Shown: piece by piece, positions 14,038-60,166 of the stretch
Layout: each line of letters starts with the position of its first letter
Numbering within the stretch: the stretch's first letter is position 1
Assembly: GCA_002448475.1 (NCBI GenBank)
Contig: DJYI01000139.1
Span: 19,732 to 83,731 of the forward strand
Source of the DNA: Verrucomicrobia bacterium UBA6982
GTDB taxonomy: Bacteria; Verrucomicrobiota; Kiritimatiellia; RFP12; UBA3636
Direction: 5' to 3'
Length of the DNA: 64,000 nucleotides
The notes under the pieces: generated by a model
The model's database searches: none
Told to the model about the DNA's origin: nothing
Seen by the model: the letters and a program-made list of their open reading frames with translations, nothing else
Translations under genes and position numbers: made by a program

Positions 14038-14203
14038 ACGATGTCAGGAAAAACGGGATAAGCCTGATCAAAAATTATCTTGAACGCCAATTCCGGTGAT
14101 GGTAGAATCCCCGCCGTTGAAGCGATGCTGGAACCTTGTTCCGGCGAATTTTCGTCAGTCTATTTGCGTTTGCGGTCGCACTTTCGAACACACGAGGGCA
14201 TAC

Positions 14204-15172
14204 ATGTCAAGGTTTCTTGATCCAAAGGCGGACGTCACGTTCAAGAAGGTGTTTGGCGAGCACGGGAATCTCGTCATCAGCCTTCTAAACGCCATGCTTC
14301 CCCTCGACGAAGGCAAGCAGGTCGAATCCATCGAGTATCTTCCTCCGGAGCAGGTTCCCCGGACTCCAACTGGCAGGAATTCCATCGTTGACGTCCGTTG
14401 CGAGGAGACAGGCGGGCGCAAGTTCATAGTCGAAATGCAAATGGAGTGGACGCCGGAATTCCAGCAGCGCGTCCTCTTCAACGCCTCCAAGGCATACGTC
14501 CGGCAGATGCGCAAGGGCTCGAAATACCACCTGCTTCAGCCGGTCTATTCGCTCAACTTCATAAACGACATATTCGCCCCCGACCTGCCCGGCTACTATC
14601 ATTACTACCACCTCGTCCACTATCTTCATTCCGACAAGGTGCTTGACGGACTTCATCTCGTGTTCGTTGAACTGCCGAAGTTCAAGGCAAAAAGCCTCGC
14701 TGAGAAGAAGATGCAGGTTCTGTGGCTGCGTTTTCTGACGGAAATCGACGAAAACACCAGAAAAGTCGCCAAGGAACTTCGAGACAATCCGCAAGTCAGC
14801 GAGGCCCTGGACATCGTCGAGGAGTCCGCTTTCAACGACGAGGATCTGGCCGCCTACAACGGGTTCTGGGACCGCGTGAGCCGGGAGGCCACGAAAAAGG
14901 CGAACATGGACCGTGCGTTTGCCGAGCGAGACGCCGCCGTGGCAAATCTCAACGCTGCCGTGGCAAAGCTAGACGCCGCCGTGGCCGACCGCGACGCCGC
15001 CGTGGCAAAGGCGGATGCCGCCGCCGCGAAAGCCGATGCCGCAATAACTAAATTGCTACAGACAGCGCGAAAGCTTAAATCGCGTGGTTTTTCCGACAAA
15101 GACATCGCCGCCATCACGGGCCTTGACGCCGCCACAATCTCAAATCTGTCCAACCTCCATATCCCACAATGA
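14204..15172 (+). CDS. Rpn/YhgA-like PD-(D/E)XK nuclease, putative transposase-like recombination-promoting nuclease
   Basis: The N-terminus MSRFLDPKADVTFKKVFGEH and ...VDVRCEETGGRKFIVEMQ... (the nuclease core) are typical of the Rpn/transposase_31 family. The start is the ATG at 14204. The upstream 36 codons of the ORF are probably not translated. Confidence 0.65.
   Translation: MSRFLDPKADVTFKKVFGEHGNLVISLLNAMLPLDEGKQVESIEYLPPEQVPRTPTGRNSIVDVRCEETGGRKFIVEMQMEWTPEFQQRVLFNASKAYVRQMRKGSKYHLLQPVYSLNFINDIFAPDLPGYYHYYHLVHYLHSDKVLDGLHLVFVELPKFKAKSLAEKKMQVLWLRFLTEIDENTRKVAKELRDNPQVSEALDIVEESAFNDEDLAAYNGFWDRVSREATKKANMDRAFAERDAAVANLNAAVAKLDAAVADRDAAVAKADAAAAKADAAITKLLQTARKLKSRGFSDKDIAAITGLDAATISNLSNLHIPQ
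14927..15052 (+). repeat. Six tandem 21-nt (heptad) repeats encoding DAAVAxx, at the C-terminus of the Rpn-like gene
   Basis: The nucleotide unit is gacgccgccgtggcaaa.... The protein reads ERDAAVA NLNAAVA KLDAAVA DRDAAVA KADAAAA KADAAIT. Confidence 0.6.
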
Positions 15173-49121: not shown

Positions 49122-50014
49122 GGTATTGATGGCCCGTGTGACGGATCTTGATCTTGCACGTCAGACGGGAACGATGAAACGGCATCATCTTTCCACCAAG
49201 CTCGAAAAGCGTGGTCGGTGATTCTCTTCTCCGGAGGAGGAGGAGTCATGTAATCGCCGTAAACAGAAGTCAGATACTCCTTCCACCCTGACATGACGCA
49301 TCGGGACTCTCCTTCAAAGGGAACTGTTGCCCATCCCGCATAAATGGAACTCGGAAAAATCTCCCGAATCCCGTACCCCCAAACTGCACAACCAACGAAT
49401 GGTGCTCCTTCAAACGATGTTTGGGACGCTTTCCTGCTGAACAACGGAAGAATCAACCGACTTGGAAGACGACGCACGGCCAACGGAATCAATTTGAAGG
49501 GGAGACAAAGCGAGAGAAACAACTGGCGCCGAAAGGACCGTTTTTTGTTGAATGGAGAGCAGTTCTGAAAAACAAGACACCCCCAAACCACTTTTTTCAT
49601 CCGAATGATTCGGCGAGGCGTTTCGTTATTGTCGGGAAACCCGTCCAAGGGGAAAACATCAAGGAAAACACCAAGTTGCAAATGTCGATATGAATCTTCG
49701 ATCAAGACGGTTCTTTCATCGCAGACTTTCGCAAAGGGGTAACAATACTTGCTGTCATTCTCATGGCAATGGAGCGCATAGCGGTCAGAACGGAACTCAC
49801 GGCAAAACCGTTCGTAATCGGGGCGTGGCATTGCAATGTCAATATCGTCATCCCAAGGAATAAAACCTTTGTGTCGGATTGCCCCGAGAAGGGTTCCACC
49901 ATACAGCGTGTAACGAAGTCCGTTTTTGACGCAGAAGGCATGAACCTCGGAAAGGATGCCTTTCTCAATGTTCTGAATCTCTTGTGTGGAGGAAATCGTC
50001 TTCATGTTCGTCAT
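49118..50014 (-). CDS. LicD-family phosphotransferase, copy 2
   Basis: ...STQEIQNIEKGILSEVHAFCVKNGLRYTLYGGTLLGAIRHKGFIPWDDDIDIAMPRPDYERF... aligns position by position with the pneumococcal LicD N-terminus. The start is the ATG at 50014 (MTNMKT), where the TAA stop of the upstream gene overlaps it by 1 nt. An in-frame ATG at 50074 is an alternative. Confidence 0.75.
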   Translation of the reverse strand: MTNMKTISSTQEIQNIEKGILSEVHAFCVKNGLRYTLYGGTLLGAIRHKGFIPWDDDIDIAMPRPDYERFCREFRSDRYALHCHENDSKYCYPFAKVCDERTVLIEDSYRHLQLGVFLDVFPLDGFPDNNETPRRIIRMKKVVWGCLVFQNCSPFNKKRSFRRQLFLSLCLPFKLIPLAVRRLPSRLILPLFSRKASQTSFEGAPFVGCAVWGYGIREIFPSSIYAGWATVPFEGESRCVMSGWKEYLTSVYGDYMTPPPPEKRITDHAFRAWWKDDAVSSFPSDVQDQDPSHGPSIP

Positions 50015-50862
50015 TAGCTCAAGTAGAGTTTGCCCTCGGTGAAAACACGACTGACAATCAGACAATGTCGCCATCGTCGTCCTATGCGCGCCAGAATGCG
50101 ATAAACGATACGCTCCCTTTTTTGAAGAAACCGAGGAAGTGGATAGTACGATCTTCGAATCTGATCATATTCGGCCCATCTGGTTTCTCTATACACGGTT
50201 GAAACGTTCGAGTCGTGAATCGCGAATGCTCCGATTACGCCGGGCACAAAGTGAAACCTATAACCGGCTTTCGCAAGCCGACAGTAGTATTCGCCGTCCA
50301 TGATGACCTTATAGGACGGATCAAGATAGTGTCCGGAATCAATCGCTCGACGGCGCCAAAAAGACGAACAGGAAGCAATCGTAACAGACGAAACGGCCAT
50401 GACAAAAAACGAGAACCTATGGGAATGCTTGACGCGAATCGGGCACCCATCTTCCGAAACGAAAAGAAAGTCGCCGTAAACAAAATCGGCCTTGGGGTGC
50501 TTTTCGAGGAAGTCGGCGACGAGGGAGAACTTGCCGGGAAGATAGTATTCGTCCGCGTTGAGCCAGGCGACAACGTCGCCCGTGGCGCGGCGAAGGCCCT
50601 TGTTGATCGCGTCGGTCTGGCCCTTGTCGGGCTCGGAAACGTAGGAAAAGGAATAGCGGCCGTCCTTCGCGGCCGGCTGCGCCGCCGCGGAGGTGGCCCA
50701 ATCCTTGAGGATCTGGACGGAGTCGTCGGTCGAGCCACCGTCTATGACGATGTGCTCAATCGCCGGTGCCCCCGGCGCGTCCGCCTGCGCGAGCACGCTT
50801 TCGAGCGCCTTCCTCAGGAAGCGCCCGTAATTGTAGTTCGGTGTAACGATGGAGAATTTCAT
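50014..50862 (-). CDS. Family 2 glycosyltransferase
   Basis: MKFSIVTPNYNYGRFLRKALESVLAQ...IVIDGGSTDDS... is a GT-A DxD N-domain. The start is the ATG at 50862, overlapping the upstream stop as ATGA. Confidence 0.7.
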   Translation of the reverse strand: MKFSIVTPNYNYGRFLRKALESVLAQADAPGAPAIEHIVIDGGSTDDSVQILKDWATSAAAQPAAKDGRYSFSYVSEPDKGQTDAINKGLRRATGDVVAWLNADEYYLPGKFSLVADFLEKHPKADFVYGDFLFVSEDGCPIRVKHSHRFSFFVMAVSSVTIASCSSFWRRRAIDSGHYLDPSYKVIMDGEYYCRLAKAGYRFHFVPGVIGAFAIHDSNVSTVYRETRWAEYDQIRRSYYPLPRFLQKRERIVYRILARIGRRWRHCLIVSRVFTEGKLYLS

Positions 50863-51380
50863 TGCTCGGGAGCCCCCGCCGACACGGGCGATTCGTCCGC
50901 GCCGCAAGGGATGGGGTTTCCGTCCAGCTCCCGCTGGGCGGCGAAAGCGATACGTTGGGCATCCAAGGCGTCGAAGAGGTGTTCGACGGACATTTCGTGA
51001 TAAGGGGAATACAGGAGAAGGATCGTTTCAAGAGGGGCGAACGCTTCAATCTCGCGAAACGAAAGCCCTGTCTTCCACTGGTATTGGGCAAGAGCCCATC
51101 CGGCCCAGAACTCCCGGCTCCGACCGACGACTCCCTTCGGTTTCTCGCGGCGGAATGGGACGCCTGCGTCATCGAGGATTTCCGCCGCGAGCTCCCATCC
51201 TGACTTTCCGCTCACGGTTCCGCTGAGTCCGTTTCCGAAGTCGTCCGAAACGTGCGAGGAAAGAAAGAGACGCCAGAAGTCCCGAAGCTCCATGCCGAAG
51301 AGATAGACCGCGCTCTCCAGCATCGATCCGAGGGCGAGCGAAGCGTCGGAGAGGTACAAGTCACTGTAGGCGGGGATCAT
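50859..51380 (-). CDS. Hypothetical protein, partner of the upstream DUF3990-like gene
   Basis: The start is the ATG at 51380 (MIPAYSDLYL...). It overlaps the upstream gene by 20 nt. I recognise no motif. Confidence 0.4.
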   Translation of the reverse strand: MIPAYSDLYLSDASLALGSMLESAVYLFGMELRDFWRLFLSSHVSDDFGNGLSGTVSGKSGWELAAEILDDAGVPFRREKPKGVVGRSREFWAGWALAQYQWKTGLSFREIEAFAPLETILLLYSPYHEMSVEHLFDALDAQRIAFAAQRELDGNPIPCGADESPVSAGAPEQ

Positions 51381-52032
51381 CCGGACGAATCCTTTCCTGA
51401 AGAATGTTGAGCATGTAGAGTCCGTCCGGATCGAACGGCTGGGCTCGCATCTCGCGGAACTCCCGCCGCGCGTCCGCGTCGCGCCGTTCCCGGGAATCGA
51501 GATAATCGGAGCGGCTTGCCGGTTCCGCCGAAACGAAGGAAAGAGCGCCGAACGCCTTCCGGCTCTTCGCGACGACTTGCAAACCGAGATTGCCGAGCCG
51601 GATCGCCCGCGAAAGGTTGGCATAGGAGAGGGCGCCTGAAAGAAACGTGCGCGCAAAGGAAAAGTAGCTGTCGTCCGCACGATAGCCGACGATGACATCG
51701 GCTTTTGAGTAATCGGGCAGGAACGTCGAAAGAAGATAGTCTCGCGCAGCGGAGGCGATGTCTCCATCGATGTCGAACGTGCGGTTCTCGAGCAGAACGG
51801 CGAGCCAGTGCAACACTGTGAACGACCCATCGGCCAGGTTCAAAACGTTCAATAGGGACAGGTCGAGTTCGTATTGATTGACGAACCCGTCGTGGAGAGG
51901 GGTGACGCTCCACTCGCCGGCAAGAGAACGATCCTCGGTGCAGTAGAACCCAAGCCCGTAGTCGTTGCTTCGCTTGCCGAAGCCGAACACGGGCCTTTCA
52001 ACAACACTCTCGGAACCGTGGAATATCGTCAT
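51361..52032 (-). CDS. DUF3990-like protein
   Basis: MTIFHGSESVVERPVFGFGKRSNDYGLGFYCTEDRSLAGEW resembles the DUF3990 N-terminal consensus (M.LYHGS...DFG.GFY.T....A..WA). The start is the ATG at 52032, preceded by GGAG. Confidence 0.45.
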   Translation of the reverse strand: MTIFHGSESVVERPVFGFGKRSNDYGLGFYCTEDRSLAGEWSVTPLHDGFVNQYELDLSLLNVLNLADGSFTVLHWLAVLLENRTFDIDGDIASAARDYLLSTFLPDYSKADVIVGYRADDSYFSFARTFLSGALSYANLSRAIRLGNLGLQVVAKSRKAFGALSFVSAEPASRSDYLDSRERRDADARREFREMRAQPFDPDGLYMLNILQERIRPDDPRLQ

Positions 52033-52430
52033 TCGGAGGCTCCAAGGGAAACCTCCCTGGACGACGTCCACAGGCCGTGGAGGTTGCAGTAGGCTGTGGC
52101 GTGGAGGGTGCCGGGGACGGTGAGGGAGACGCGGAAGCGGGCGGAGGGCGCGGTGGCGGCGGGGCCGGGCGCGTCGGAGAGGGAGGCGCCGTGCGCCGAG
52201 AAGTCCGCGCGGCCCAGCTCGATCGAGGTGCTGGCGCCTTCGGGGACGAAATGAAGCGCGATCCAGACGATGTGGTGCTGCACCGTGTTCGGATGCGCGA
52301 TCTCCTTGCCGACGTCGACCTCGACGTCGAAGGGGACGCCGGGCTTCACGGACGCCGGGGCGGAGATGACGGGGACGTGCTTTTCCGCCTTCCAATCGGC
52401 GGTCTTGACGGTGGAGGAAAGCGTGTTCAT
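52029..52430 (-). CDS. Superoxide reductase (1Fe-SOR, neelaredoxin/desulfoferrodoxin centre-II type), copy A
   Basis: The Fe-ligand motifs are all present: ...EKHVPVI..., ...HPNTVQHHIVWIAL... and ...CNLHGLW.... The start is the ATG at 52430 (MNTLSSTVKTADW). Confidence 0.75.
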   Translation of the reverse strand: MNTLSSTVKTADWKAEKHVPVISAPASVKPGVPFDVEVDVGKEIAHPNTVQHHIVWIALHFVPEGASTSIELGRADFSAHGASLSDAPGPAATAPSARFRVSLTVPGTLHATAYCNLHGLWTSSREVSLGASE

Positions 52431-52522
52431 TTTTGGATTGTCACCCCTCGTCGGAGCATTTGCCGCCCCGGCGGCGGCAGGGGGTAGAGGTTGATGGTCG
52501 GATGCGTCAAAGGGATGGCGGA

Positions 52523-52551
52523 ATTCTAGCATACTTGAAAAAAAGTTGCAA
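52523..52551 (-). promoter_or_regulatory. Putative sigma70-type promoter of SOR copy A
   Basis: On the minus strand, TTGCAA (-35, 52546-52551), then a 17-nt spacer, then TAGAAT (-10, 52523-52528). The block is conserved upstream of copy B (54755-54782, with a 16-nt spacer). A 13-bp direct repeat CCGGCGGTCGGCC lies just upstream and occurs twice. Confidence 0.4.
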
Positions 52552-52607
52552 CCGGCGGTCGGCCCCTGCCGAACAGCGGGCCGCCCGGCGGTCGGCCCCC
52601 ATCAAGC

Positions 52608-52760
52608 GTCGTCGTTCACTTGGGCGAGAACACTTTCAAGCGCATTCCGGAGGAAGCGCCCGTAGCTGTAGTTCGGAGTGACGATGGAGAATCTCATTGC
52701 GCTGCGGTCTTGACGGTGGAGGAGAGGGTGCTCATGGCGCGCATTCTAGCAGGGAAGGAG
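52608..52760 (-). pseudogene. Chimeric gene remnant: SOR 5' end (13 codons, MSTLSSTVKTAAQ*) joined by an ATGA junction to a GT2 5' end (about 30 codons, MRFSIVTPNYSYGRFLRNALESVLAQVNDDA*), plus a fragment of the SOR -10 region
   Basis: 52625-52700 is about 85% identical to 50790-50865, the 5' end of the GT2 gene and its junction with the DUF3990-partner gene. 52703-52737 resembles the SOR start region 52396-52430. Confidence 0.5.
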
Positions 52761-52793: not shown

Positions 52794-54095
52794 TCACGGG
52801 CGGAGGGTCGAGAGGGGGCAGACGAGGATACCGTCCTCGGGACGGCGGTAGGCGATGTCGCCTTCGGCGACGACAATCATGCGGAAGGCCGGAGGGGGCA
52901 TGCGGGTCGTGTCGATCTTGGATGCTAGGGATGTAAGGGCGGCGACGCCCTTGGCGATCAGGGAGTCGCCGCCCGTCTTGATCTCGATCAGGCCGTAGTG
53001 CCCGTTTTCGAGGCGCAGCACGGCGTCGCACTCCAAGCCGCTTTTGTCATGGTAGTGGCACAGCGTACCGCCGAGGGCGTCGGCGCAGGTTCGCAGGTCG
53101 CGGATGGCCATGGTCTCGAAGAACAGGCCGAAGGTCGGCATGTCGTTCATGAGTTCGGCCGGGCCCACGCCGAGCGCTGCGGCGGCGATCGAAGGATCGG
53201 AGAAATAGCGCGTGTCCGTCGTCCGGATCGGCGTCTTGCAGCGCAGGTTCGGACACCAGGCCTCGAGATCGTCCGTCGCGAAGATCTTCCGCAGTGCCTT
53301 CAGGTAGGCGTACACGGTGTCCTCCGTCAGGGTGTCGACGTCATTGGCCTTCATGTCATCGCGGATGGCGGCCGCGGACGACTGCGTTCCCTGGAGCCGG
53401 GCCAGGCTACGCATAAGGCGCCGGACCCGGCCGGGATCGCGCAGGGTGCCGTCGACCCGCGAAACGTCGCTGTCGCAGATTGCCGCGAAATACTCCTTCG
53501 CCGGGCCGCGCGCGGCGCTCCCGGACAAGCCGAGCGCGCCCGGCCATCCCCCTCGGCACAGCAGTTCGCAAATGTCCTCGAGATGCCGATCGTTCTTCGC
53601 GCCGGTCGGATCCTCTCCGGCAAACAGACCGGAGAAGGAAACCGAGCCCGTGGACTCGCCGCTCTCCCAAAGGCTCATGGGGCGCATGGACAAGCGAGCG
53701 ATGCGGCCCGTTCCCGTATGGCGGAGGGTCCGGTTCTTTTCGTCCGCTTCGTCCACCGCCGGCGGAACGGCGCTGCCCGTCAGGATGAACATGCCCCGCC
53801 CGCCCTCGTCGACGGCAAACCGGACGGCGTCCCAGAGAAGCGGCACTTCCTGCCACTCGTCCAGAAGATGGGGCGAAGCGCCCTCCAACACCTTGTCGGG
53901 GCGGGCCTCCGCCAGAATCCGGTCGGTCCTTCCCTTGACCGGATCGCCGAAACAGACCTCGCTTTTCGCGATTTGCCGGGCCGTTGTCGTCTTCCCGCAC
54001 CATTTCGGACCCTGCACGAGAACGGCACCCATGTACGACAACTTTTCCGCGAGAAGAATGTCCGCAACGCGTTTTCTGTAGGTTTCCGCTTTCAC
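52794..54095 (-). CDS. AAA+ ATPase of the DUF4143-containing (AAA_14-like) family
   Basis: Walker A is VLVQGPKWCGKTTTARQ, and there is a C-terminal DUF4143-like region. The GTG start at 54095 is preceded on the minus strand by TTGACA, 17 nt, then CAGAAT. Confidence 0.65.
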   Translation of the reverse strand: MKAETYRKRVADILLAEKLSYMGAVLVQGPKWCGKTTTARQIAKSEVCFGDPVKGRTDRILAEARPDKVLEGASPHLLDEWQEVPLLWDAVRFAVDEGGRGMFILTGSAVPPAVDEADEKNRTLRHTGTGRIARLSMRPMSLWESGESTGSVSFSGLFAGEDPTGAKNDRHLEDICELLCRGGWPGALGLSGSAARGPAKEYFAAICDSDVSRVDGTLRDPGRVRRLMRSLARLQGTQSSAAAIRDDMKANDVDTLTEDTVYAYLKALRKIFATDDLEAWCPNLRCKTPIRTTDTRYFSDPSIAAAALGVGPAELMNDMPTFGLFFETMAIRDLRTCADALGGTLCHYHDKSGLECDAVLRLENGHYGLIEIKTGGDSLIAKGVAALTSLASKIDTTRMPPPAFRMIVVAEGDIAYRRPEDGILVCPLSTLRP

Positions 54096-54134
54096 AAGGG
54101 TGGATTCTGGGTCATTTTCCTGAATTTGTCAAGC

Positions 54135-54249
54135 CATTCGGTAATTTGGCGAATTTTCGTTAGGCAATCTGGCGCCATTCCGTTAGGCAATCTGGCGCCA
54201 TTCCGTTAGGTAATTTGGCGACGTTTCGTTAGGTAATTTGGCGACAGAT
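54135..54249. repeat. Tandem array of a 23-bp unit CGTTAGG(C/T)AAT(C/T)TGGCG(C/A)C...: four full copies plus one degenerate copy
   Basis: Read directly. The full copies are at 54158-54180, 54181-54203, 54204-54226 and 54227-54249, with a degenerate copy at 54135-54157. The array sits immediately upstream of the putative -35 of the DUF4143 ATPase gene. Confidence 0.8.
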
Positions 54250-54264: not shown

Positions 54265-54657
54265 CTAATCCACCGCGAGCGCCGAGGCGCTTGTCCACAG
54301 GCCGTGGAGGTTGCAGTAGGCTGTGGCGTGAAGGGTGCCTGGGGCGGAGATGCAGACGCGGAAGCGGGCGGAGGGCGCGGTGGCGGCGGGGCCGGACGCG
54401 TCGGAGAGGGAGGCGCCGTGCGCCGAGAAGTCCGCGCGGCCGAGCTCGATCGAGGTGCTGGTGCCTTCGGGGACGAAATGAAGCGCAATCCAGACGATGT
54501 GGTGCTGTGCCGTGTTCGGATGCGGAATCTCCTTGCCGACGTCGACCTCGACGTCGAAGGGGACGCCGGGCTTCACTGACGCCGTGGCGGAGATGACGGG
54601 GACGTGCTTTTCCGCCTTCCAGTCGGCGGTCTTGACGGTGGAGGAAAGTGTGTTCAT
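54265..54657 (-). CDS. Superoxide reductase (1Fe-SOR), copy B
   Basis: Nearly identical to copy A (MNTLSSTVKTADWKAEKHVPVISATASVKPGVPFDVEVDVGKEIPHPNTAQHHIVWI...CNLHGLW). Confidence 0.75.
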   Translation of the reverse strand: MNTLSSTVKTADWKAEKHVPVISATASVKPGVPFDVEVDVGKEIPHPNTAQHHIVWIALHFVPEGTSTSIELGRADFSAHGASLSDASGPAATAPSARFRVCISAPGTLHATAYCNLHGLWTSASALAVD

Positions 54658-54829
54658 TTTTGGATTGCCACCGCTACGCTCGGCGTGACATTCGCCGCCC
54701 CGGCGGCTGAAAGGTGTAGAGGTTGATGGTCGGATGCGTCAAAGGGATGGCGGAATTCTAGCATACTTGAAAAAAGTTGCAACCGGCGGTCGGCCCCTGC
54801 CGAACAGCGGGCCGCCCGGCGGTCGGCCA

Positions 54830-56050
54830 CTACCGAACTAGAGGGAGCCGCTTTGATACGGTGCAGCGGACCATGGTGGGGGAGAGATCGAACTTCGGTG
54901 GTGGGTTGCCGTTGTCTGCCAAATGCTGGCGGGCGAGACCGATGCCGCGTCCAAATTGCTGGACGTATCCCCAGGTCTTGAGAATGGTGGCTAGGTTCGG
55001 GTTGCGATAGTCGGCATAGCCGGGAACGCCGAAGGTCTCCGACGTGACGGTTCCATACGGTCCGCCGGGGTTGGAAATTTCCACGCGATCGTCAAACCAG
55101 TCCACGCGGACCGGCGCATTGGTGTGTTCATAGGTCCGATGCAGGACGGCGTTGTAGAGCAATTGCTGCAGGGCGACCATCGGATAGTCGGGCCGAACAA
55201 TATGCGTCGGACCGGATTCCACGTCCCACGCGATGCGGTTGTGGGCCGCCATTTTCGCCTCTGCGGTCTGAAGCATGGCCTTGAGCGGGCCGCGGCAGTC
55301 CAGTTCGTCAACGACCGGTGCCGCGCGATCCGTCCCGGAGAAGCGGAGGAACTGGACCCTGGCTCCGGGGAGATGCCATTGGGGATCCTTTCCCAGGGCC
55401 AGCAACCCGGAAAGCGTTGGTCGCGTATCCTCCGGCGAAACGATCATCCGGCAGGAGGCAAGTTTCTCTTCGTAGCTGCGGCCGTTCGCGGAGAGGATCT
55501 CCGGCGCAAACGCTACCGGGAGAAACTCGTCCTCGAACGCCGCACGGGAGAGGTCGGCCAACGAGGCCGCCACAACCGGACAGAGGTCGAACGGAAGGTT
55601 CTTCCAACGCCTTTTCTCGGTGAGCGTCCGCTCCTCCTGAACTGTGGCGACGCCACGACGCGGCCCGATCCGAATCCATGTGCGCCCGTCGAACTTCACG
55701 GGCGGAATGTCCGACGGCTCGACAACGACAACGACCATCTCGGCACCGAGAAGAATCCGTTTCTCGACAAGGATCGACGGAGACGGTAGAATGCGACCAT
55801 CGGTCTTCATGTCCGAAACGTCGCGCAAAAGCTCGTCCGTCACGGCCAAGCCGGACGGCGAACCGTCGTCGTTCGCTCCGATGAAGAGGACGCCGGGGTG
55901 ATTGTGGCCCGGGAGGTCGTTCGCAAACGCGCATACCGCCTCCCGCGCCTTTGTCGCGACATCGCGCGAGAAGGAAGACTTCCTCTCGGCGGCGTCGGAC
56001 TCAAGGTCCCTGAGACGGGCCAGCAGTTCTGCGTCGGACAGTGAACTCAT
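54830..56050 (-). CDS. AlbA_2 (Schlafen-like divergent AAA) + HATPase_c_4 domain protein, usually annotated as a putative transcriptional regulator or 'RecG-like'
   Basis: MSSLSDAELLARLRDLESDAAERKSSFS...AVCAFANDLPGHNHPGVLFIGANDDG... is the AlbA_2-type N-domain. The C-terminus ...LLYNAVLHRTYEHTNAPVRVDWFDDRVEISNPGGPYGTV... is HATPase_c_4-like. The start is the ATG at 56050, 28 nt after the SNF2 gene. The ORF's 249 upstream codons overlap the SNF2 gene and are not expected to be translated. Confidence 0.6.
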   Translation of the reverse strand: MSSLSDAELLARLRDLESDAAERKSSFSRDVATKAREAVCAFANDLPGHNHPGVLFIGANDDGSPSGLAVTDELLRDVSDMKTDGRILPSPSILVEKRILLGAEMVVVVVEPSDIPPVKFDGRTWIRIGPRRGVATVQEERTLTEKRRWKNLPFDLCPVVAASLADLSRAAFEDEFLPVAFAPEILSANGRSYEEKLASCRMIVSPEDTRPTLSGLLALGKDPQWHLPGARVQFLRFSGTDRAAPVVDELDCRGPLKAMLQTAEAKMAAHNRIAWDVESGPTHIVRPDYPMVALQQLLYNAVLHRTYEHTNAPVRVDWFDDRVEISNPGGPYGTVTSETFGVPGYADYRNPNLATILKTWGYVQQFGRGIGLARQHLADNGNPPPKFDLSPTMVRCTVSKRLPLVR

Positions 56051-56078
56051 GCGGGGCGGATAATAGCAGAAGTGGGCG

Positions 56079-58901
56079 CTACTGCCAAGAAAGGCGACAG
56101 TTTTCGACGAAGGCTCGGGCGGAGCGGATCGGATCCGGGATGTCGCGGGAAAACACAGACGCCTCCAGAATGCGCTCAAATTCGGGGCGAAGATCAAGTT
56201 CGGCGACGGCGGACTGGAAGTCCTCGGAAGAAACGGGCGCGACGGAATCCGACTCCGGAACTGCGCCGAGCGCTTGGCGCGCGGCGCCTGCGGCGAGTGC
56301 CACGGCCTTGCGCAGCGCGGCCTGGCCTTCCCCCGCGAACCCGCCGCCAACAAGAAGTTCTCCCATTTTGAGGAGGCGTTCGGTTTCGGAGTCGGCCCTT
56401 CTGGCAGCCGCGACGCGGCGCGCGGCCGCAGCCTTGGCCGCATCGGCCGGTTCGCGGACAAACACCGGCTTCGCGACATCGGAGCGGAACTGGATGACTC
56501 CCAAATCGCGGAGCCGTTCGATGATCGCCCAGGTTTCCGGGGAGACAATCTCCACAGCAGAGTCAGGCAGCGCCGTTCCGTGGGTTCCGGCGATCCGTCG
56601 GGCCGCCTCGGTCTGGTCGATTCCGGAGCCGACGAAGACGGCGGCGGTCGGCGCACGGTCGGCGGCGTCCCCGGAACGGCCGAGCAGGAGGCGCTCGACG
56701 CCGGGACATTCCGCCGCGATTTCCGCGCGAAGCCGCTCGTCCGGCGGGATGACCGGCTCGGTTCGAGGCGAAGGATCGGGGCGGACCTTGACAGCATCGC
56801 CCATCACGGAGGCAAGGCGCTGCATGAAGGCGCTTTCCTTCCTGCGTCCCTTAGCCTCCTCGGCGTCAAGTCGCTCGAAGTCGGCGGCGTCGCCCTGCGC
56901 GTCAAGAACGAAATCGGCCAGCCCCTGCTTGAAATCTAGCGTCTGGAGCATACGCTCCTCTATCGTTCCGGCGGCGACCATGTTCACGACAAGGACATCG
57001 CGCTTCTGGTGCTTGCGCCAGGCGCGGGCAATCCGCTGTTCGAGGCGGGCCGGATTCCACGGAAGATCGAGGTTTACGACAACGCTCGCTACCTGAAGGT
57101 TCAGGCCCACGCCGCCGGACTCCGAGGCGAGGAACACCCGGCACTTCGGATCCTCCTTGAAGCGACGAATTTCCTCCCGGCGGCGCCTCTGCGGAATCTG
57201 GCCGGTGTGGAGAGCGAAGCCGATGTCCTTCGCCTCGAGCCTGGCGGCGAGCAGATCAAGCATGCGGGTCCATTCGGAGAACACAATGACCTTGCGAGAA
57301 GGTTCGTCGGCGAAGATGTCGTCAAGGACCTCCTCGAATTCGTCCAGTTTTGGCGAGTCGCGGATTTCGGGATCCATGATATAGCAGGAATCGCAAAGCA
57401 TTCTCATCATCGCAAGTTCCCTCTGGAGACGCTCCTGCTCCTTCGGGGAAAGCGGACGCTTCCTGCTTAGCGCGTAAAGGGTCGCGACCTCGTGCAGGTG
57501 CTCGTCGTAGCGACGCGACTGCTCCGGCGTCATCGAAGTCTTGTAGGTTTTCGACATGCGGCCTGGAAGTTCGTCCTCGACTGCTGACTTGCGACGGCGT
57601 AAAAGGATGCCCGAAACCGCGTCATGGAGTTCCGCGAGATCCTTCATGCCCGTGTTGTGGCCATCTTTGTCAAAGGAGTAGAAGCGCCTGTTGAAGCGAA
57701 AGAGACTGCCGAAAAGGGTAGGATCGACGAATTCGACCAGAGAATAGAGCTCGTCAATGCGGTTCTCCAGCGGCGTGCCGGTCAGGACGAAGGCGTATGG
57801 GGAGGACAGGGCCTTCAAGTTGCGGGCGGTCTTTGTCTTCCAGTTCTTGATGCGCTGGGCCTCGTCGAGAATGACAAGGTCGGGCTTCAACGTGTCGTTG
57901 ATCTCCTTCCAGTCGCGGATTGCCTGCTCGTAGTTCGCGACAAGAAAGAACGCCGCCGTTTTCGCGTAACGTTCGAGACGTGCGGCGCGAGCGCCGAAGA
58001 GCAGTTCGACCGTCGCATCGGAAAAGAGCCGGATCTGATCGTCCCATTCGCCTTTGAGAGAGGCCGGCACGATTACGAGAACATGGCGGACATCGGCGGC
58101 CTCGCGAAGAAGAAGCGCCGCCGCGATCGCCTGAACGGTCTTGCCGAGGCCCATTTCGTCGGCAAGGATGGCGCGCCCCTTGCGGGCGAGATGCAAGGCG
58201 CCGTCCTGCTGATATGGGAAGAGAGATTTCTTCAGGAACGGCCAGCGGGTGTCGGTGCCCTGATCGTCGCGGAATTCGTCGACGGCTCGAACGAGCGCCT
58301 CGCGGCGTGTCAGGTCCGCCAGGTGGCGTCGAATTTCATGCGAAACGCGAACAGAACCTGGACGGACGGCATTCAACCTGTCGCAGGCGCGGAGAAAAAC
58401 GTCCAGACCGGCGGCGGAGGCGTCGCGGAGCGTCCCGTCGGCGGCGCAATGGCGCGCCAGGGCGCGCCGCGTCTCCGGCGGCAGGGTAGGGGACAGGATG
58501 AGAACCGGGACATGCCGTGGGCGGCGTATGAACACCTCTGCGGCTGTCGATTGGCGGGACTTTCCGCACTTGCGCGCGGCAACCTTCAGGACACGTTCGA
58601 TGTGCTTGCATGTGCCGAGACCGTTCTTGACGAAATCCGGGCAATTGCATGTATTGATCGGTTCGTCAAGCGAGCGCAGTTCGACTCTGTAGGCGGCGGT
58701 TCGGTGATCTGCGGCCGGGTGAGACACCTCGTAGATGCCAAACCCGCCGGACACGTCGACGGCCCTGACCTTCATGGGCTCGGCCGCCGCCCGTTCCCGC
58801 CGCTTGCGTATTTCCTCCGCGTCCGTAGTCGCCCAGCTATCGAGCTTGGGCACCTTGGCGCGGGAGGGCGATGCTCCGTTTTTCAGTTGCTGTGTCTTCA
58901 T
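56079..58901 (-). CDS. SNF2-family helicase with an N-terminal SWIM zinc finger (YwqA/RapA-like)
   Basis: The SWIM finger is CNCPDFVKNGLGTCKHIERV. The SNF2 motifs include ...ILADEMGLGKTVQAIAA... (motif I), ...DLVILDEAQRIKN... (DEAQ box, motif II) and ...VFLASESGGVGLNLQVASVVVNLDLPWNPARLEQRIARAWRKHQ... (motifs V-VI). Confidence 0.8.
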   Translation of the reverse strand: MKTQQLKNGASPSRAKVPKLDSWATTDAEEIRKRRERAAAEPMKVRAVDVSGGFGIYEVSHPAADHRTAAYRVELRSLDEPINTCNCPDFVKNGLGTCKHIERVLKVAARKCGKSRQSTAAEVFIRRPRHVPVLILSPTLPPETRRALARHCAADGTLRDASAAGLDVFLRACDRLNAVRPGSVRVSHEIRRHLADLTRREALVRAVDEFRDDQGTDTRWPFLKKSLFPYQQDGALHLARKGRAILADEMGLGKTVQAIAAALLLREAADVRHVLVIVPASLKGEWDDQIRLFSDATVELLFGARAARLERYAKTAAFFLVANYEQAIRDWKEINDTLKPDLVILDEAQRIKNWKTKTARNLKALSSPYAFVLTGTPLENRIDELYSLVEFVDPTLFGSLFRFNRRFYSFDKDGHNTGMKDLAELHDAVSGILLRRRKSAVEDELPGRMSKTYKTSMTPEQSRRYDEHLHEVATLYALSRKRPLSPKEQERLQRELAMMRMLCDSCYIMDPEIRDSPKLDEFEEVLDDIFADEPSRKVIVFSEWTRMLDLLAARLEAKDIGFALHTGQIPQRRRREEIRRFKEDPKCRVFLASESGGVGLNLQVASVVVNLDLPWNPARLEQRIARAWRKHQKRDVLVVNMVAAGTIEERMLQTLDFKQGLADFVLDAQGDAADFERLDAEEAKGRRKESAFMQRLASVMGDAVKVRPDPSPRTEPVIPPDERLRAEIAAECPGVERLLLGRSGDAADRAPTAAVFVGSGIDQTEAARRIAGTHGTALPDSAVEIVSPETWAIIERLRDLGVIQFRSDVAKPVFVREPADAAKAAAARRVAAARRADSETERLLKMGELLVGGGFAGEGQAALRKAVALAAGAARQALGAVPESDSVAPVSSEDFQSAVAELDLRPEFERILEASVFSRDIPDPIRSARAFVENCRLSWQ

Positions 58902-59038
58902 TGTCTGTGGCCGATTATTGACAATTGCGGTCTAAGCGCAAGGAAAATCGTGAATCTGGGTGGGATAAAAAAAGCGTAGTTGCGAATTTTACGTATCGAA
59001 CTTTACGCAACGCAAAAGAAGTGCTAGTATTCGGCCTC

Positions 59039-60166
59039 ATGAAACCGAACAACCCCTTTCTTGTGCGCGGATACGCCGGTCCGGAATGGTTCTGTGATCG
59101 CGAGAACGAAACAGCAAAACTCGTTTCGGCGTTTGAAAACGACCGTGACGTGACTCTTGTGGCCCCTCGGCGATACGGGAAAACAGGACTTATCAGGAAC
59201 GCTTTCCAATGTCTAGACGATCAGATTCCCAAAATTTACATTGATGTGTTCCAAACACGAACTCTGGCCGACTTCACGGCTCTGTTTGCTTCCGCCGTGG
59301 CCGATGCAATGGACACAAAGTTCGAGCGGGCGGTTGCCGCCGCAGCGTCCTTTTTCAGGAGCTGTCGTCCATCGATTACCGTTGGACCTGACGGAAATCC
59401 AAAGATTTCGTTCGACATTTCTCCTTCGCGGACTGAAGAGACGCTTTCCGAAGCATTCGCCTATTTGGCAAAACGCGACAAACGCGCCATTATCGCCATT
59501 GATGAATTTCAACAGGTGCTGGACTATCCCGGCCAGAGCGCCGAAGCGCTTCTGCGATCACAAATTCAGTTTGTTCCGCACATTCGTTTCGTCTTTGCCG
59601 GATCACGCCAACATCTCATGCGAGAAATGTTTCTGTCGCCCAAGCACCCGTTCTATCAAAGCACTGACATCCTTTCCCTGAAGCCAATTGACAAAGACAT
59701 CTATTATTCCTTCGCGGCCCGACACTTCCGCGCCGGGGCAATGAAACTGGAGAAATCAGCGTTTGATGCCATCTATGACCGATTCGACGGAGTGACCTGG
59801 TACCTGCAAATGGTTCTTAATCGTTTATGGGAGGGTCGTCGGGATGTCATGGGTCCCGATGCCGTGGAACCGGTCATTTCGGAAATCATAGAATCGAGAT
59901 CTATGGAATACCATGATCTTCTCCTCTCCCAGACGTCGGCTTCTCAAGCTGTTTTGCGCGCCATGGCGGCGGAAAAAATCGTGGCGGAACCGACGTCCGG
60001 CCAGTTCGTGGCGCATTGTGGACTCCGTGCGACATCCACCGTTGCGTCCGCATTAAAGTCGCTTCGAGATCGAGATCTCGCATATCACACACCTAGGGGA
60101 TGGATTGTCTATGACCGCTTTTTTGGAGAATGGCTGTCTCGGTTCGCTCCCCGCCTCCGCCAATGA
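59039..60166 (+). CDS. Arch_ATPase-type AAA+ ATPase with a C-terminal DUF234-like winged-helix domain
   Basis: ...FLVRGYAGPEWFCDRENETAKL... then Walker A LVAPRRYGKTGL and Walker B AIIAIDEFQQV. The start is the ATG at 59039. It sits in a lower-GC segment. Confidence 0.6.
   Translation: MKPNNPFLVRGYAGPEWFCDRENETAKLVSAFENDRDVTLVAPRRYGKTGLIRNAFQCLDDQIPKIYIDVFQTRTLADFTALFASAVADAMDTKFERAVAAAASFFRSCRPSITVGPDGNPKISFDISPSRTEETLSEAFAYLAKRDKRAIIAIDEFQQVLDYPGQSAEALLRSQIQFVPHIRFVFAGSRQHLMREMFLSPKHPFYQSTDILSLKPIDKDIYYSFAARHFRAGAMKLEKSAFDAIYDRFDGVTWYLQMVLNRLWEGRRDVMGPDAVEPVISEIIESRSMEYHDLLLSQTSASQAVLRAMAAEKIVAEPTSGQFVAHCGLRATSTVASALKSLRDRDLAYHTPRGWIVYDRFFGEWLSRFAPRLRQ

What the first reader, a model, noticed from the sequence alone, without database searches (positions are those of the whole stretch)
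54135..54249. Four tandem 23-bp repeats abutting the promoter of the DUF4143 ATPase gene: candidate iteron/operator array
There are four full copies and one degenerate copy of CGTTAGGCAATCTGGCGCCATTC (copies 3-4 are variants with T and A substitutions), immediately upstream of a TTGACA-17-CAGAAT element in front of the ATPase's GTG start. Regular tandem units at helical-repeat-like spacing next to a -35 are typical of iterons or multimeric regulator binding sites. They are unlikely to be a CRISPR array because there are no spacers.
Basis: seen in the sequence. Interest (0 to 1): 0.5.

Follow-up and report, generated by a model that had tools for sequence, protein, structure and literature searches.

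The report
Self-operator repeat array of ATPase-nuclease gene
Five 23-bp head-to-tail repeats sit against the promoter of an uncharacterised ATPase-nuclease gene, and the same kind of array accompanies this very common candidate anti-phage gene family in six bacterial phyla, most likely as the binding site of the protein itself.

Summary
Five 15-nt cores (GCCAAATTACCTAAC or GCCAGATTGCCTAAC, minus strand) lie exactly 23 bp apart at 54136-54242. The last core ends 3 nt before a TTGACA-17-CAGAAT promoter, 8 nt upstream of the GTG start of an AAA_14/DUF4143 ATPase with a PD-(D/E)xK nuclease (PADLOC candidate PDC-S01).

It is not a dispersed repeat. A scan of 185,579 species genomes found only 10 arrays, one per genome.

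The array travels with the gene. Of 106 distinct homologous loci (26-94% protein identity, six phyla), 95 have 23 bp as the best upstream period, and 99 have 22-24 bp. Controls show none. Orientation is fixed in 75 of 77 unit types. Unit sequences differ between loci but are uniform within an array. No neighbouring gene is conserved.

The variable core positions co-vary specifically with residues 238-262 of the ATPase, the predicted helix-turn-helix of a winged-helix domain. No permutation out of 500 reached this value.

Best reading: the ATPase binds its own phased array head-to-tail and autoregulates. Binding and the direction of regulation are inferred, not shown. The neighbouring AlbA_2 protein is not the regulator. 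A replication-iteron reading is unsupported. I found no prior description.

The parts
54136..54242 (-). Array of five 23-bp units. The 15-nt cores lie at 54242-54228 (GCCAAATTACCTAAC), 54219-54205 (GCCAAATTACCTAAC), 54196-54182 (GCCAGATTGCCTAAC), 54173-54159 (GCCAGATTGCCTAAC) and 54150-54136 (GCCAAATTACCGAAT). Each is followed by an 8-nt A-rich, less conserved spacer.
   Evidence: for the window. Searches show homologous arrays upstream of homologous genes.
54104..54132 (-). Sigma-70-type promoter: -35 TTGACA at 54132-54127, a 17-nt spacer, and -10 CAGAAT at 54109-54104. The -35 begins 3 nt after the last repeat core. The -10 ends 8 nt before the GTG start, so the mRNA is probably leaderless or nearly so (inferred).
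   Evidence: promoter scan, 10 of 12 matches, 0.1 expected. The same geometry, with TTGACA-17/18-TATAAT, is seen in L003, L007 and L011.
52794..54095 (-). Gene for a 433-aa AAA_14/DUF4143 ATPase (PADLOC PDC-S01). It has a Walker A motif (G29-T38), Walker B (D79-E80), a predicted winged-helix domain and a C-terminal PD-(D/E)xK nuclease domain with E355, D357, E371 and K373.
   Evidence: Pfam; PADLOC PDLC04790, E 2.7e-52, full length; invariant residues; model and fold matches.
53199..53435 (-). Coding region for the predicted winged-helix domain (residues 221-299: helices 221-233, 241-249 and 258-269, strands 274-277 and 296-299). Residues 238-262 (nt 53310-53384) are the segment that co-varies with the variable repeat positions.
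   Evidence: AlphaFold2 model, pLDDT 74-88 in this region; Fur/PerR/PadR-type winged-helix matches; partial-correlation peak r=0.30, reached by 0 of 500 permutations.

Best explanation
The array is the cognate DNA site of the ATPase encoded immediately downstream.

Proposed mechanism:
1. Each 23-bp unit carries an asymmetric 15-nt core. One ATPase protomer binds each core through its central winged-helix domain.
2. The recognition helix (about residues 258-269) and the preceding helix and turn read the locus-specific positions 6-12. Family-invariant contacts go to A4A5, A13 and A17-19.
3. The units are head-to-tail and exactly 23 bp apart (about 2.2 helical turns). Protomers therefore line up in one direction and can contact each other, probably through the AAA+ domains, giving cooperative and possibly nucleotide-dependent occupancy.
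4. The promoter-proximal core ends 1-3 nt before the -35 hexamer. In Bacteroidota-type loci it sits at a fixed phase before the -7 box. A filled array would therefore control RNA polymerase access.
5. The promoters of the Kiritimatiellae relatives are near-consensus (the window's own -10 is weaker), so the effect is most likely negative autoregulation. This would hold a potentially toxic nuclease at a low, buffered level.

Shown by computation: the anatomy, the conservation, the fixed orientation and period, the absence of any other linked gene, and the HTH-core co-variation. Inferred: physical binding, cooperativity, and the direction of regulation.
For: Array geometry in the window.

The array travels with the gene across unrelated contexts:
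- L001/L014 (94% protein identity), L002 and L003 (75-77%).
- Six plasmid-borne homologs at 26-52% identity in Bacteroides, Collinsella, Prosthecochloris and Lentilactobacillus all have 23-bp-period arrays with different unit sequences.
- Six more at 26-31% identity (Actinomyces, Mycobacterium, Novosphingobium, Rhizobium, Agrobacterium, Spartinivicinus) have 22-23-bp arrays.

Survey and controls:
- Of 106 distinct upstream regions, the best period is 23 bp in 95 and 22-24 bp in 99. The period-23 score is at least 12 in 86. It reaches 12 in none of the downstream, far-upstream or shuffled controls.
- Orientation relative to the gene is fixed in 75 of 77 unit types.
- Positions 6-12 are 80-96% identical within arrays but 28-63% between arrays. 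A4, A5, A13 and A17-19 are conserved everywhere.
- No conserved neighbour: the commonest family occurs in 8 of 106 loci.

Link to the protein:
- Predicted winged helix between the AAA+ and nuclease domains.
- Sliding-window partial correlation of protein distance against core distance gives a single peak at residues 238-262. r=0.30 with n=74. r=0.24 after collapsing proteins more than 85% identical. No permutation out of 500 reaches either value. The N-terminal windows closest to the array give r about 0.07. The spacer positions used as a control give a flat profile.

Promoter phase:
- Cores end 1-3 nt before the -35.
- In Bacteroidota-type loci, the distance from core end to TAnnTTTG falls into classes of 15-16 nt and 37-39 nt, one unit apart.
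Against: There is no experimental binding or expression data.

The co-variation is moderate (r=0.24-0.30). The permutation test does not fully model phylogeny.

Sites upstream of -35 can activate as well as repress.

Some arrays mix two core variants (window units 3-4; L146 alternates two cores). That is unexpected for a single reading head.

Intact arrays persist beside deleted ATPase genes (L005, L009, L012, L013).

Other DUF4143 subfamilies lack such arrays.
Confidence: 0.6

Rival explanations
1. The array is bound by the ATPase, but its main role is not transcriptional control. It would be an assembly or tethering platform where the AAA+-nuclease oligomerises. That oligomer would be stored, licensed or activated there, or used as a reference for recognising similar phased repeats on invading replicons.
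For: It rests on the same binding evidence as the best explanation. Arrays have 3-7 units, more than a simple operator needs. The nuclease catalytic residues are invariant. The family is listed as a defence candidate (PMC12988326). Orphan arrays are kept intact.
Against: The array is phase-locked to the promoter under two different promoter types, which points to transcription. No similar arrays were found in the phage or plasmid collections for this unit. Nothing tested here requires more than autoregulation.
Confidence: 0.2
2. The repeats are operator sites for a different regulator. This could be the neighbouring AlbA_2/HATPase_c_4 protein, or a host global factor.
For: AlbA_2/HATPase_c_4 proteins are putative DNA-binding regulators, and one is encoded 0.6 kb away. 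L001 shows the same order of neighbours: an upstream gene without a Pfam call, SOR, then the ATPase.
Against: The array occurs with the ATPase in more than 100 loci with unrelated neighbours. No neighbour family is present in more than 8 of 106 loci. Unit sequences diversify between loci, which a shared host factor would not allow. The variable positions track the ATPase's own HTH.
Confidence: 0.07
3. The repeats are replication iterons or a partition centromere of an integrated plasmid-like or mobile element.
For: The geometry matches plasmid iterons (own knowledge): 3-7 head-to-tail repeats with a 22-23-bp pitch next to the gene of a winged-helix protein. Some homologs lie on plasmids. In 8 of 106 loci the commonest neighbouring ORF family resembles, on my reading of its sequence, Bacteroides site-specific integrases; it was not scanned against Pfam.
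Against: No Rep, Par or relaxase gene is linked. Contexts are ordinary chromosomal genes and are stable across many samples of one species. There is one array per genome. The protein is an AAA+-nuclease, not a Rep initiator.
Confidence: 0.05
4. The repeats are not a specific protein site. They would be slippage-generated tandem duplication, curved A-tract DNA acting as an UP-like element, or a copy-number (phase-variable) promoter spacer.
For: Spacers are A-rich and A-tracts recur every 23 bp. Unit number differs between close relatives, 5 units here against 4 in L001/L014. Whole-unit identity within arrays is high, which fits recent duplication.
Against: The 23-bp period is kept across six phyla while the sequence changes. 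Core positions are more uniform than spacer positions within arrays. Orientation is fixed. The core co-varies with a specific protein segment.
Confidence: 0.05

Closest known systems
Plasmid iterons and their Rep initiators (for example R6K pi / gamma-ori 22-bp x7, pPS10 RepA 22-bp x4, RK2 TrfA); from own knowledge
   Same: Both have three to seven asymmetric direct repeats, head-to-tail at a 22-23-bp pitch, next to the gene of the winged-helix protein thought to bind them. In both, repeat sequence and protein diversify together, giving orthogonal specificities.
   Different: No replicon context and no Rep fold were found. An AT-rich unwinding element and DnaA boxes were not looked for. The protein is an AAA+ ATPase fused to a PD-(D/E)xK nuclease. 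The array is phase-locked to a promoter in chromosomal loci.
Centromere-operators of plasmid partition systems (ParR-parC of R1, pSK41 parC, TubR-tubC); from own knowledge
   Same: Tandem direct repeats lie immediately upstream of the operon whose product binds them cooperatively, so the site also serves as an autoregulatory operator.
   Different: There is no ParM, ParA or TubZ partner. The unit length and the protein fold differ. This is a single-gene unit.
Archaeal Orc1/Cdc6 with origin recognition boxes
   Same: Both are AAA+ ATPases with a winged-helix domain binding asymmetric boxes next to their own gene. Orc1-DNA structures appear among the Foldseek hits.
   Different: The fold matches are very weak (probability 0.09-0.11). 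To my knowledge ORBs are inverted around an unwinding element, not tandem at 23 bp. No nuclease domain is present there.
PADLOC PDC-S01 / COG1373 (AAA_14 + DUF4143) candidate defence genes
   Same: The window protein matches PDLC04790 over its full length (E 2.7e-52) and has both Pfam domains and the nuclease motif.
   Different: Published descriptions cover only the protein, an ATPase fused to a PD-(D/E)xK domain that remains unvalidated (PMC12988326, PMC13356809, PMC3424549). None that I found mentions an upstream repeat array. Only one clade of the family has it.
Dedicated repressors of defence loci (for example RptR, PMC12255303; BrxR/CapW-type regulators, own knowledge)
   Same: Both involve DNA-binding control of a potentially toxic defence gene at its own promoter.
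   Different: Those are separate regulator genes. To my knowledge they usually bind inverted repeats. Here the effector itself carries the reading head and the site is a phased direct-repeat array.

Membership tests
PDC-S01 / COG1373 ATPase-nuclease (protein) | AAA_14 ATPase domain followed by DUF4143 | tested here: met
   Pfam PF13173 (E 3.6e-11) and PF13635 (E 1.2e-27), both above their curated cut-offs.
PDC-S01 / COG1373 ATPase-nuclease (protein) | Full-length match to a PADLOC PDC-S01 model | tested here: met
   PDLC04790, E 2.7e-52, residues 5-430 against model positions 10-416 of 422.
PDC-S01 / COG1373 ATPase-nuclease (protein) | PD-(D/E)xK catalytic motif | tested here: met
   E355, D357, E371 and K373 are invariant across homologs of 28-77% identity to the window protein. 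The C-terminal domain model has pLDDT above 90 and matches McrC, NgoMIV, NucS, Card1 and HamA.
PDC-S01 / COG1373 ATPase-nuclease (protein) | Anti-phage activity | not testable with these tools
   The literature states that validation is pending (PMC12988326).
Autoregulatory operator array | Sites located at the promoter of the regulated gene, with fixed geometry | tested here: met
   The last core ends 1-3 nt before the -35. In Bacteroidota-type loci the distance to the -7 box is 15-16 nt or 37-39 nt.
Autoregulatory operator array | Sites bound by the product of the adjacent gene | tested here: inconclusive
   The support is indirect: the ATPase is the only linked gene, it has a predicted winged helix, and its HTH co-varies with the core.
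Autoregulatory operator array | Occupancy changes transcription | not testable with these tools
   This needs a reporter assay or RNA-seq.
Replication iterons | Direct repeats of about 17-22 bp at a pitch of about 22 bp, several copies | tested here: met
   Five units at 23 bp. Across the family there are 2-7 units at 22-23 bp.
Replication iterons | Linked Rep initiator gene and location in a replicon origin | tested here: not met
   The adjacent gene is AAA_14/DUF4143. No Rep or Par neighbour family was found. Chromosomal contexts are stable.
CRISPR array | Repeats separated by unique spacers of similar length, with a leader and cas genes | tested here: not met
   The 15-nt cores are separated by only 8 nt of semi-conserved A-rich sequence. 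No Rfam hit, including CRISPR repeat families.
Dispersed repeat / MITE | Many copies at unrelated genomic sites | tested here: not met
   The core occurs only here in the window. The scan of 185,579 species genomes found 10 arrays, one per genome. Five of these abut an intact ATPase gene and two a recognisable remnant of one; three (L005, L006, L012) have no detectable ATPase sequence next to them. No extra or inverted copies lie within +-2.5 kb in 78 loci, except one orphan array.
Transposon ends (Tn7/Mu-type multiple transposase sites) | Inverted sets of sites at both ends and a linked transposase | tested here: not met
   There are 0 reverse-strand core matches in 411 kb from 78 loci, and no conserved transposase neighbour.

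The most novel reading that the evidence does not exclude
The 23-bp phased array is an 'iteron' for an immune effector. The AAA+-winged-helix-nuclease polymerises head-to-tail on phased direct repeats, and this DNA-templated oligomer is the functional state of PDC-S01. The chromosomal array would serve as autoregulator and as a decoy or reservoir. Similarly phased repeats on invading plasmids or phages, such as origin iterons, would nucleate the active nuclease. That would be a defence that recognises repeat geometry plus a short programmable core, with specificity diversified through the HTH.
Probability: 0.15. Interest if true: 0.85.

Novelty: new variant of a known kind. Interest (0 to 1): 0.66.

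Why it matters
PDC-S01 (COG1373, AAA_14 + DUF4143) is reported as the fourth most common defence candidate across prokaryotes and the most frequent single locus in rumen genomes. It has no validated function or mechanism (PMC12988326, PMC13356809).

A conserved cis element predicted to be read by the protein's own winged helix gives the family its first concrete, testable DNA ligand. It comes with a defined geometry: 23 bp, head-to-tail, 3-7 units. It also comes with a candidate specificity code, core positions 6-12 against residues 238-262.

This makes EMSA, cryo-EM, reporter and specificity-swap experiments straightforward. It also explains how a nuclease-bearing single-gene unit could be kept under control when it moves between genomes. 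The array would be a useful annotation marker for this clade as well.

Tried and rejected
- **CRISPR-like array:** rejected. Spacers are 8 nt and semi-conserved, and there is no Rfam hit.
- **Structured RNA or ssDNA element:** rejected. There is no Rfam match and the folding z-score is -0.77.
- **Dispersed repeat or MITE:** rejected.
- **Transposon ends:** rejected. There are no inverted copies and no transposase.
- **AlbA_2 neighbour as regulator:** rejected, because it is not conserved with the array.
- **Similar arrays in phage or plasmid collections:** none found. The only hit was a marginal 34-nt match.
- **Other DUF4143 subfamilies:** the 474-aa and 380-aa paralogs in L002 and loci L141-L144 have no 23-bp array. 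L142 has a 33-bp x2.4 repeat.
- **Sequence searches of the PDB:** nothing useful with the single protein or the profile.
- **First AlphaFold2 run:** with a shallow alignment the model was poor (pLDDT 53). A profile search with A1 added little diversity. A consensus-sequence query supplied the diversity for the second model.
- **Per-column mutual information:** too noisy, dominated by high-entropy columns. I replaced it with sliding-window partial correlation and permutations.
- **Literature:** searches for DUF4143, COG1373, PDC-S01, AAA_14, '23-bp repeats' and guilt-by-embedding found no description of the array. The library is incomplete, so this does not prove novelty.

Full report
**1. What is in the window**

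Tandem Repeats Finder reports a period-23 array at 54140-54246 with 4.7 copies, 85% matches, no indels and score 137. This is the strongest tandem repeat in the 64-kb window. The central 23-mer is present twice exactly, and no match appeared in 100 shuffles. The 12-nt core GGYAATYTGGCG occurs five times at exact 23-bp steps and nowhere else in the window without a mismatch.

The ATPase gene lies on the minus strand (54095..52794, GTG start), so I read the array on that strand. It consists of five 15-nt cores starting at 54242, 54219, 54196, 54173 and 54150:
- GCCAAATTACCTAAC, twice
- GCCAGATTGCCTAAC, twice
- GCCAAATTACCGAAT, once

Each core is followed by about 8 nt of A-rich spacer. Three nucleotides after the last core comes TTGACA (54132-54127), then a 17-nt spacer and CAGAAT (54109-54104). 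This is the only promoter-like site in the 500-bp scan, against 0.1 expected. The -10 ends 8 nt before the GTG, so the transcript is probably leaderless (inference). The array fills most of the 169-nt gap between the stop codon of a desulfoferrodoxin gene (54265-54657, minus strand) and the ATPase start.

**2. The gene**

The 433-aa product has AAA_14 and DUF4143 domains. It matches the PADLOC candidate defence model PDC-S01 over its full length (PDLC04790, E 2.7e-52). Across homologs down to 28% identity the following are invariant:
- Walker A (G29, K31, G34, K35, T36, T38)
- Walker B (D79, E80)
- H126, G128, G130, R131
- a PD-(D/E)xK set (E355, D357, E371, K373)

DUF4143 was already classified as a PD-(D/E)xK family of unknown function (PMC3424549).

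A first AlphaFold2 model from a shallow alignment was poor. A second, from 107 sequences, reached pLDDT 76.7 and pTM 0.78. In that model:
- the AAA+ part is uncertain (pLDDT 42-73)
- residues 221-299 form three helices plus two strands (pLDDT 74-88)
- the C-terminal domain is confident (above 90)

Fold searches gave only domain-level matches:
- Fur/PerR/PadR-type winged helices
- restriction-endonuclease-like nucleases (McrC, NgoMIV, NucS, Card1/Can2, HamA, NucC)
- the archaeal AAA+ protein SSO1545
- very weakly, Orc1/Cdc6

Sequence searches of the PDB found nothing.

**3. It is not a dispersed repeat**

I scanned one genome for each of 185,579 species for two adjacent cores (AAATTACCTAAC-N10-12-AAATTACCTAAC). 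This returned 10 loci with one array each. Seven are labelled Kiritimatiellae, two are unnamed rumen MAGs, and one contig is binned as Faecalibacterium.
- Five carry an intact ATPase gene directly downstream.
- Two (L009, L013) keep the array and promoter next to a recognisable remnant of the gene.
- L005 and L012 have an array with no detectable ATPase sequence beside it.
- One (L006) is unresolved.

**4. The array travels with the gene**

The closest homologs (75-94% identity) sit in different neighbourhoods: SOR-ATPase-GT2/LicD in L001, other ATPases and glycosyltransferases in L002, and an ECF sigma factor in L003/L004. All have two to four 23-bp units with the same core abutting the promoter, TTGACA-17/18-TATAAT in L003, L007 and L011. 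The start codon lies 8-10 nt after the -10.

Distant homologs found by tblastn on plasmids also have arrays, but with different unit sequences:
- Bacteroides ovatus (52%): AAGCCAAACTGCCGAATAATATT x3
- B. uniformis (42%)
- two Collinsella copies (41% and 38%)
- Prosthecochloris (30%)
- Lentilactobacillus (26%)

All six have a 23-bp period. Six still more distant homologs at 26-31% identity (Actinomyces, Mycobacterium, Novosphingobium, Rhizobium, Agrobacterium, Spartinivicinus) have three- or four-unit arrays of 22 or 23 bp.

**5. Survey and controls**

Using an alignment of diverse members I fetched 34 loci from viral contigs and 80 from metagenomes. For every locus with at least 200 nt upstream I scored the best ungapped self-match period between 8 and 45 nt.
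- Of 106 distinct upstream regions, the best period was 23 in 95 and 22-24 in 99.
- The median period-23 score was 28, and it was at least 12 in 86 regions.
- In equal-length regions downstream of the gene, 0.7-1 kb upstream, and in shuffled sequence, no region reached a score of 12, and the best periods were scattered.

Units per array are 2 (4 arrays), 3 (36), 4 (21), 5 (12), 6 (3) and 7 (2). Orientation relative to the gene is the same in 75 of 77 distinct unit types.

Within +-2.5 kb of 78 loci there are no inverted copies. The only extra copies are a second orphan array directly after the stop codon in L118 and a single extra core-like match just after the stop codon in L036.

Clustering of 760 flanking ORFs shows no conserved partner. 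The commonest family, which resembles Bacteroides site-specific integrases on my reading of its sequence, is in 8 of 106 loci. The next, which looks like a type I restriction-modification subunit (also by eye only), is in 5. In one common gut species the identical protein sits in a stable chromosomal context across many samples.

Two other DUF4143 subfamilies lack such arrays. The feature therefore belongs to one large clade of the family.

**6. Anatomy of the unit**

I placed the units in a common register, G1 C2 C3 A4 A5 n6-n12 A13 A14 y r A17 A18 A19 n20-n23, and compared conservation within and between arrays (and 101 without any identity filter).

| Positions | Between arrays | Within an array |
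|---|---|---|
| A4, A5, A13, A17-19 | 80-100% pairwise identity | conserved |
| 6-12 | 28-63% | 80-96% |
| 15, 16, 21, 22 | not reported for this subset | 60-68% (least uniform) |

So there are family-wide contacts, a locus-specific block, and a looser spacer. This is the pattern expected for a site read by a diversifying DNA-binding head.

In Bacteroidota-type loci the distance from the last core to the TAnnTTTG -7 box falls into two classes, 15-16 nt and 37-39 nt. They differ by one unit. In sigma-70-type loci the core ends 1-3 nt before the -35. The array is therefore phase-locked to the promoter under two different promoter architectures.

**7. Who binds it**

The ATPase is the only gene always present. 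To test it directly, I computed three distances for all pairs of 74 loci:
- the distance at core positions 6-12
- the protein distance in sliding 25-residue windows
- the distance in the rest of the protein

I then took the partial correlation of the window distance with the core distance, controlling for the rest of the protein.
- There is a single peak at residues 238-262 (r=0.30). These residues cover helix 2, the turn and the start of the recognition helix in the predicted winged helix.
- The best window outside residues 210-285 reaches 0.15.
- The N-terminal windows, which are physically nearest to the array, give about 0.07.
- The same analysis with spacer positions 20-23 is flat.
- No permutation out of 500 reached the observed peak. 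After collapsing proteins more than 85% identical (n=63) the peak stays at the same window with r=0.24, against a permutation maximum of 0.215.

This is indirect evidence and does not fully model phylogeny.

**8. Mechanism proposed**

- One protomer binds per unit, head-to-tail.
- The 23-bp pitch is about 2.2 helical turns, which is roughly 70 degrees of rotation and 78 Å of rise per unit. Neighbouring protomers could therefore touch and bind cooperatively, possibly under nucleotide control.
- The proximal protomer sits against the -35 (or -33) element and so controls RNA polymerase access.
- Because the promoters of the Kiritimatiellae relatives are near-consensus (the window's -10, CAGAAT, is weaker), I favour negative autoregulation of a potentially toxic nuclease.
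- I put binding by the ATPase at about 0.75. The full statement, including repression, I put at about 0.6.
- A variant that the evidence does not exclude is that the array is also, or mainly, an assembly or tethering platform for the effector (see the rival explanations and the novel case).

**9. Rejected readings**

- **CRISPR:** the spacers are 8 nt and semi-conserved, and there is no Rfam hit.
- **Structured nucleic acid:** the folding z-score is -0.77.
- **MITE or dispersed repeat:**
- **Transposon ends:**
- **AlbA_2 protein as regulator:**
- **Replication iterons or centromere:** there is no Rep or Par gene, and the contexts are chromosomal and stable.
- **Similar arrays in phages or plasmids:** blastn found none.

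**10. Comparison with what is known**

In geometry and logic the closest systems are plasmid iterons with their winged-helix Rep proteins, and the centromere-operators of partition systems (own knowledge). Both have phased direct repeats next to the gene of the protein that binds them, with co-diversifying specificity. This element is not a member of either family, because no linked Rep or Par gene and no replicon context were found.

The protein is a member of PDC-S01/COG1373. Papers that discuss this family describe only the protein and state that validation is pending (PMC12988326, PMC13356809). Searches for DUF4143, COG1373, PDC-S01, AAA_14, '23-bp repeats' and the paper that introduced the embedding approach found no mention of an upstream array. 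The library is incomplete, so novelty is probable but not certain.

**11. Verdict**

- The element is one instance of a previously undescribed cis element found across a whole clade of one of the most abundant uncharacterised candidate defence genes.
- Novelty: a new variant of a known kind.
- Interest: 0.66.

Noticed in passing
window 52066-52597 and 54293-54828; fragments at 52704-52735 and 52613-52700: A direct duplication of about 530 bp (91-100% identity) covers the desulfoferrodoxin gene plus its upstream region and flanks the ATPase and its array. Downstream of the ATPase lie a 32-nt copy of the SOR gene start and an 88-nt copy of the start of the GT2 gene (compare 50778-50865). The close relatives L001 and L014 have SOR-array-ATPase-GT2/LicD contiguous. 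The window therefore carries a later insertion or duplication that brought SOR copy A, a DUF3990 gene (51361-52395) and ORF 50859-51830.
   Followed up: partly
L005 3173-3260 (reverse-complement orientation as printed; 2910-2944 on the minus strand in locus coordinates), L009 3452-3520, L012 2756-2800, L013 1838-1880 (reverse-complement orientation as printed; 692-726 on the minus strand in locus coordinates); L118 about +1311 to +1400 after the ATPase start: These are orphan arrays. In L009 and L013 intact 2-4-unit arrays, with promoter, sit next to heavily deleted ATPase genes: in L013 the N-terminal 20 aa are fused to the C-terminal 79 aa, and in L009 only 27 C-terminal codons remain. L005 and L012 have arrays with no detectable ATPase sequence beside them. 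In L118 a second four-unit array lies directly after the ATPase stop codon with no gene behind it.
   Followed up: partly
L146 3838-4000, and L156, L160, L164: In a common gut species (homologs named Erysipelotrichaceae or Solobacterium), the four units alternate between two core variants, GCCAAATGTAGGAAA and GCCAAATTGCCGAAA. This gives a 46-bp super-period. The window array also mixes two variants (TTACCT and GATTGCCT). I have no explanation for this under a single reading head.
   Followed up: no
Kiritimatiellae loci: window 54095-54109, L003 230-250, L007, L010, L011, L002: The -10 box ends only 8-10 nt before the start codon and there is no Shine-Dalgarno sequence. These ATPase mRNAs are therefore probably leaderless. 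In the window and in L001/L014 the start codon would be GTG, which is unusual for leaderless translation. Firmicutes- and Bacteroidota-type loci have ordinary leaders.
   Followed up: partly
L142 about -71 to +8 relative to the start of a 474-aa-type DUF4143 gene: A different DUF4143 subfamily member has a 33-bp repeat of 2.4 copies (TTTCCGTCCGAAAAGTGTCAAAATGTTAACCGT) upstream. Its relatives L141, L143 and L144 and the L002 paralogs have none.
   Followed up: no
L002 4859-4889, 7333-7365, 8077-8132, 8983-9040: There are many tandem heptamer runs (GGTTTCA / TTTCAGG, up to 8 copies) in intergenic regions of a Kiritimatiellae polysaccharide-gene contig.
   Followed up: no
window 14925-15042: A second tandem repeat in the window has a 21-bp unit, GACGCCGCCGTGGCAAACCTC, in about 5.4 copies (also scored as a 42-bp unit). 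It lies inside ORF 14096-15172 (+), so it is probably a coding repeat.
   Followed up: no
window 54830-60166: The genes next to the ATPase look defence-related. They are an AlbA_2/HATPase_c_4 protein (weak PADLOC pAgo-associated hits), a 940-aa SNF2 helicase (ZorD/DpdE/DrmD-like hits, E down to 1e-63), and a divergent ATPase_2 (PF01637) gene at 58925-60166.
   Followed up: partly
window about 26000-50000: This stretch has lower G+C (0.46-0.59, against 0.62-0.69 elsewhere). Between 43 and 51 kb the ORF translations include glycosyltransferase- and LicD-like proteins and several multi-pass membrane proteins; only the GT2 at 50014-50907 was confirmed against Pfam. It looks like a variable surface-polysaccharide island next to the ATPase locus.
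   Followed up: no
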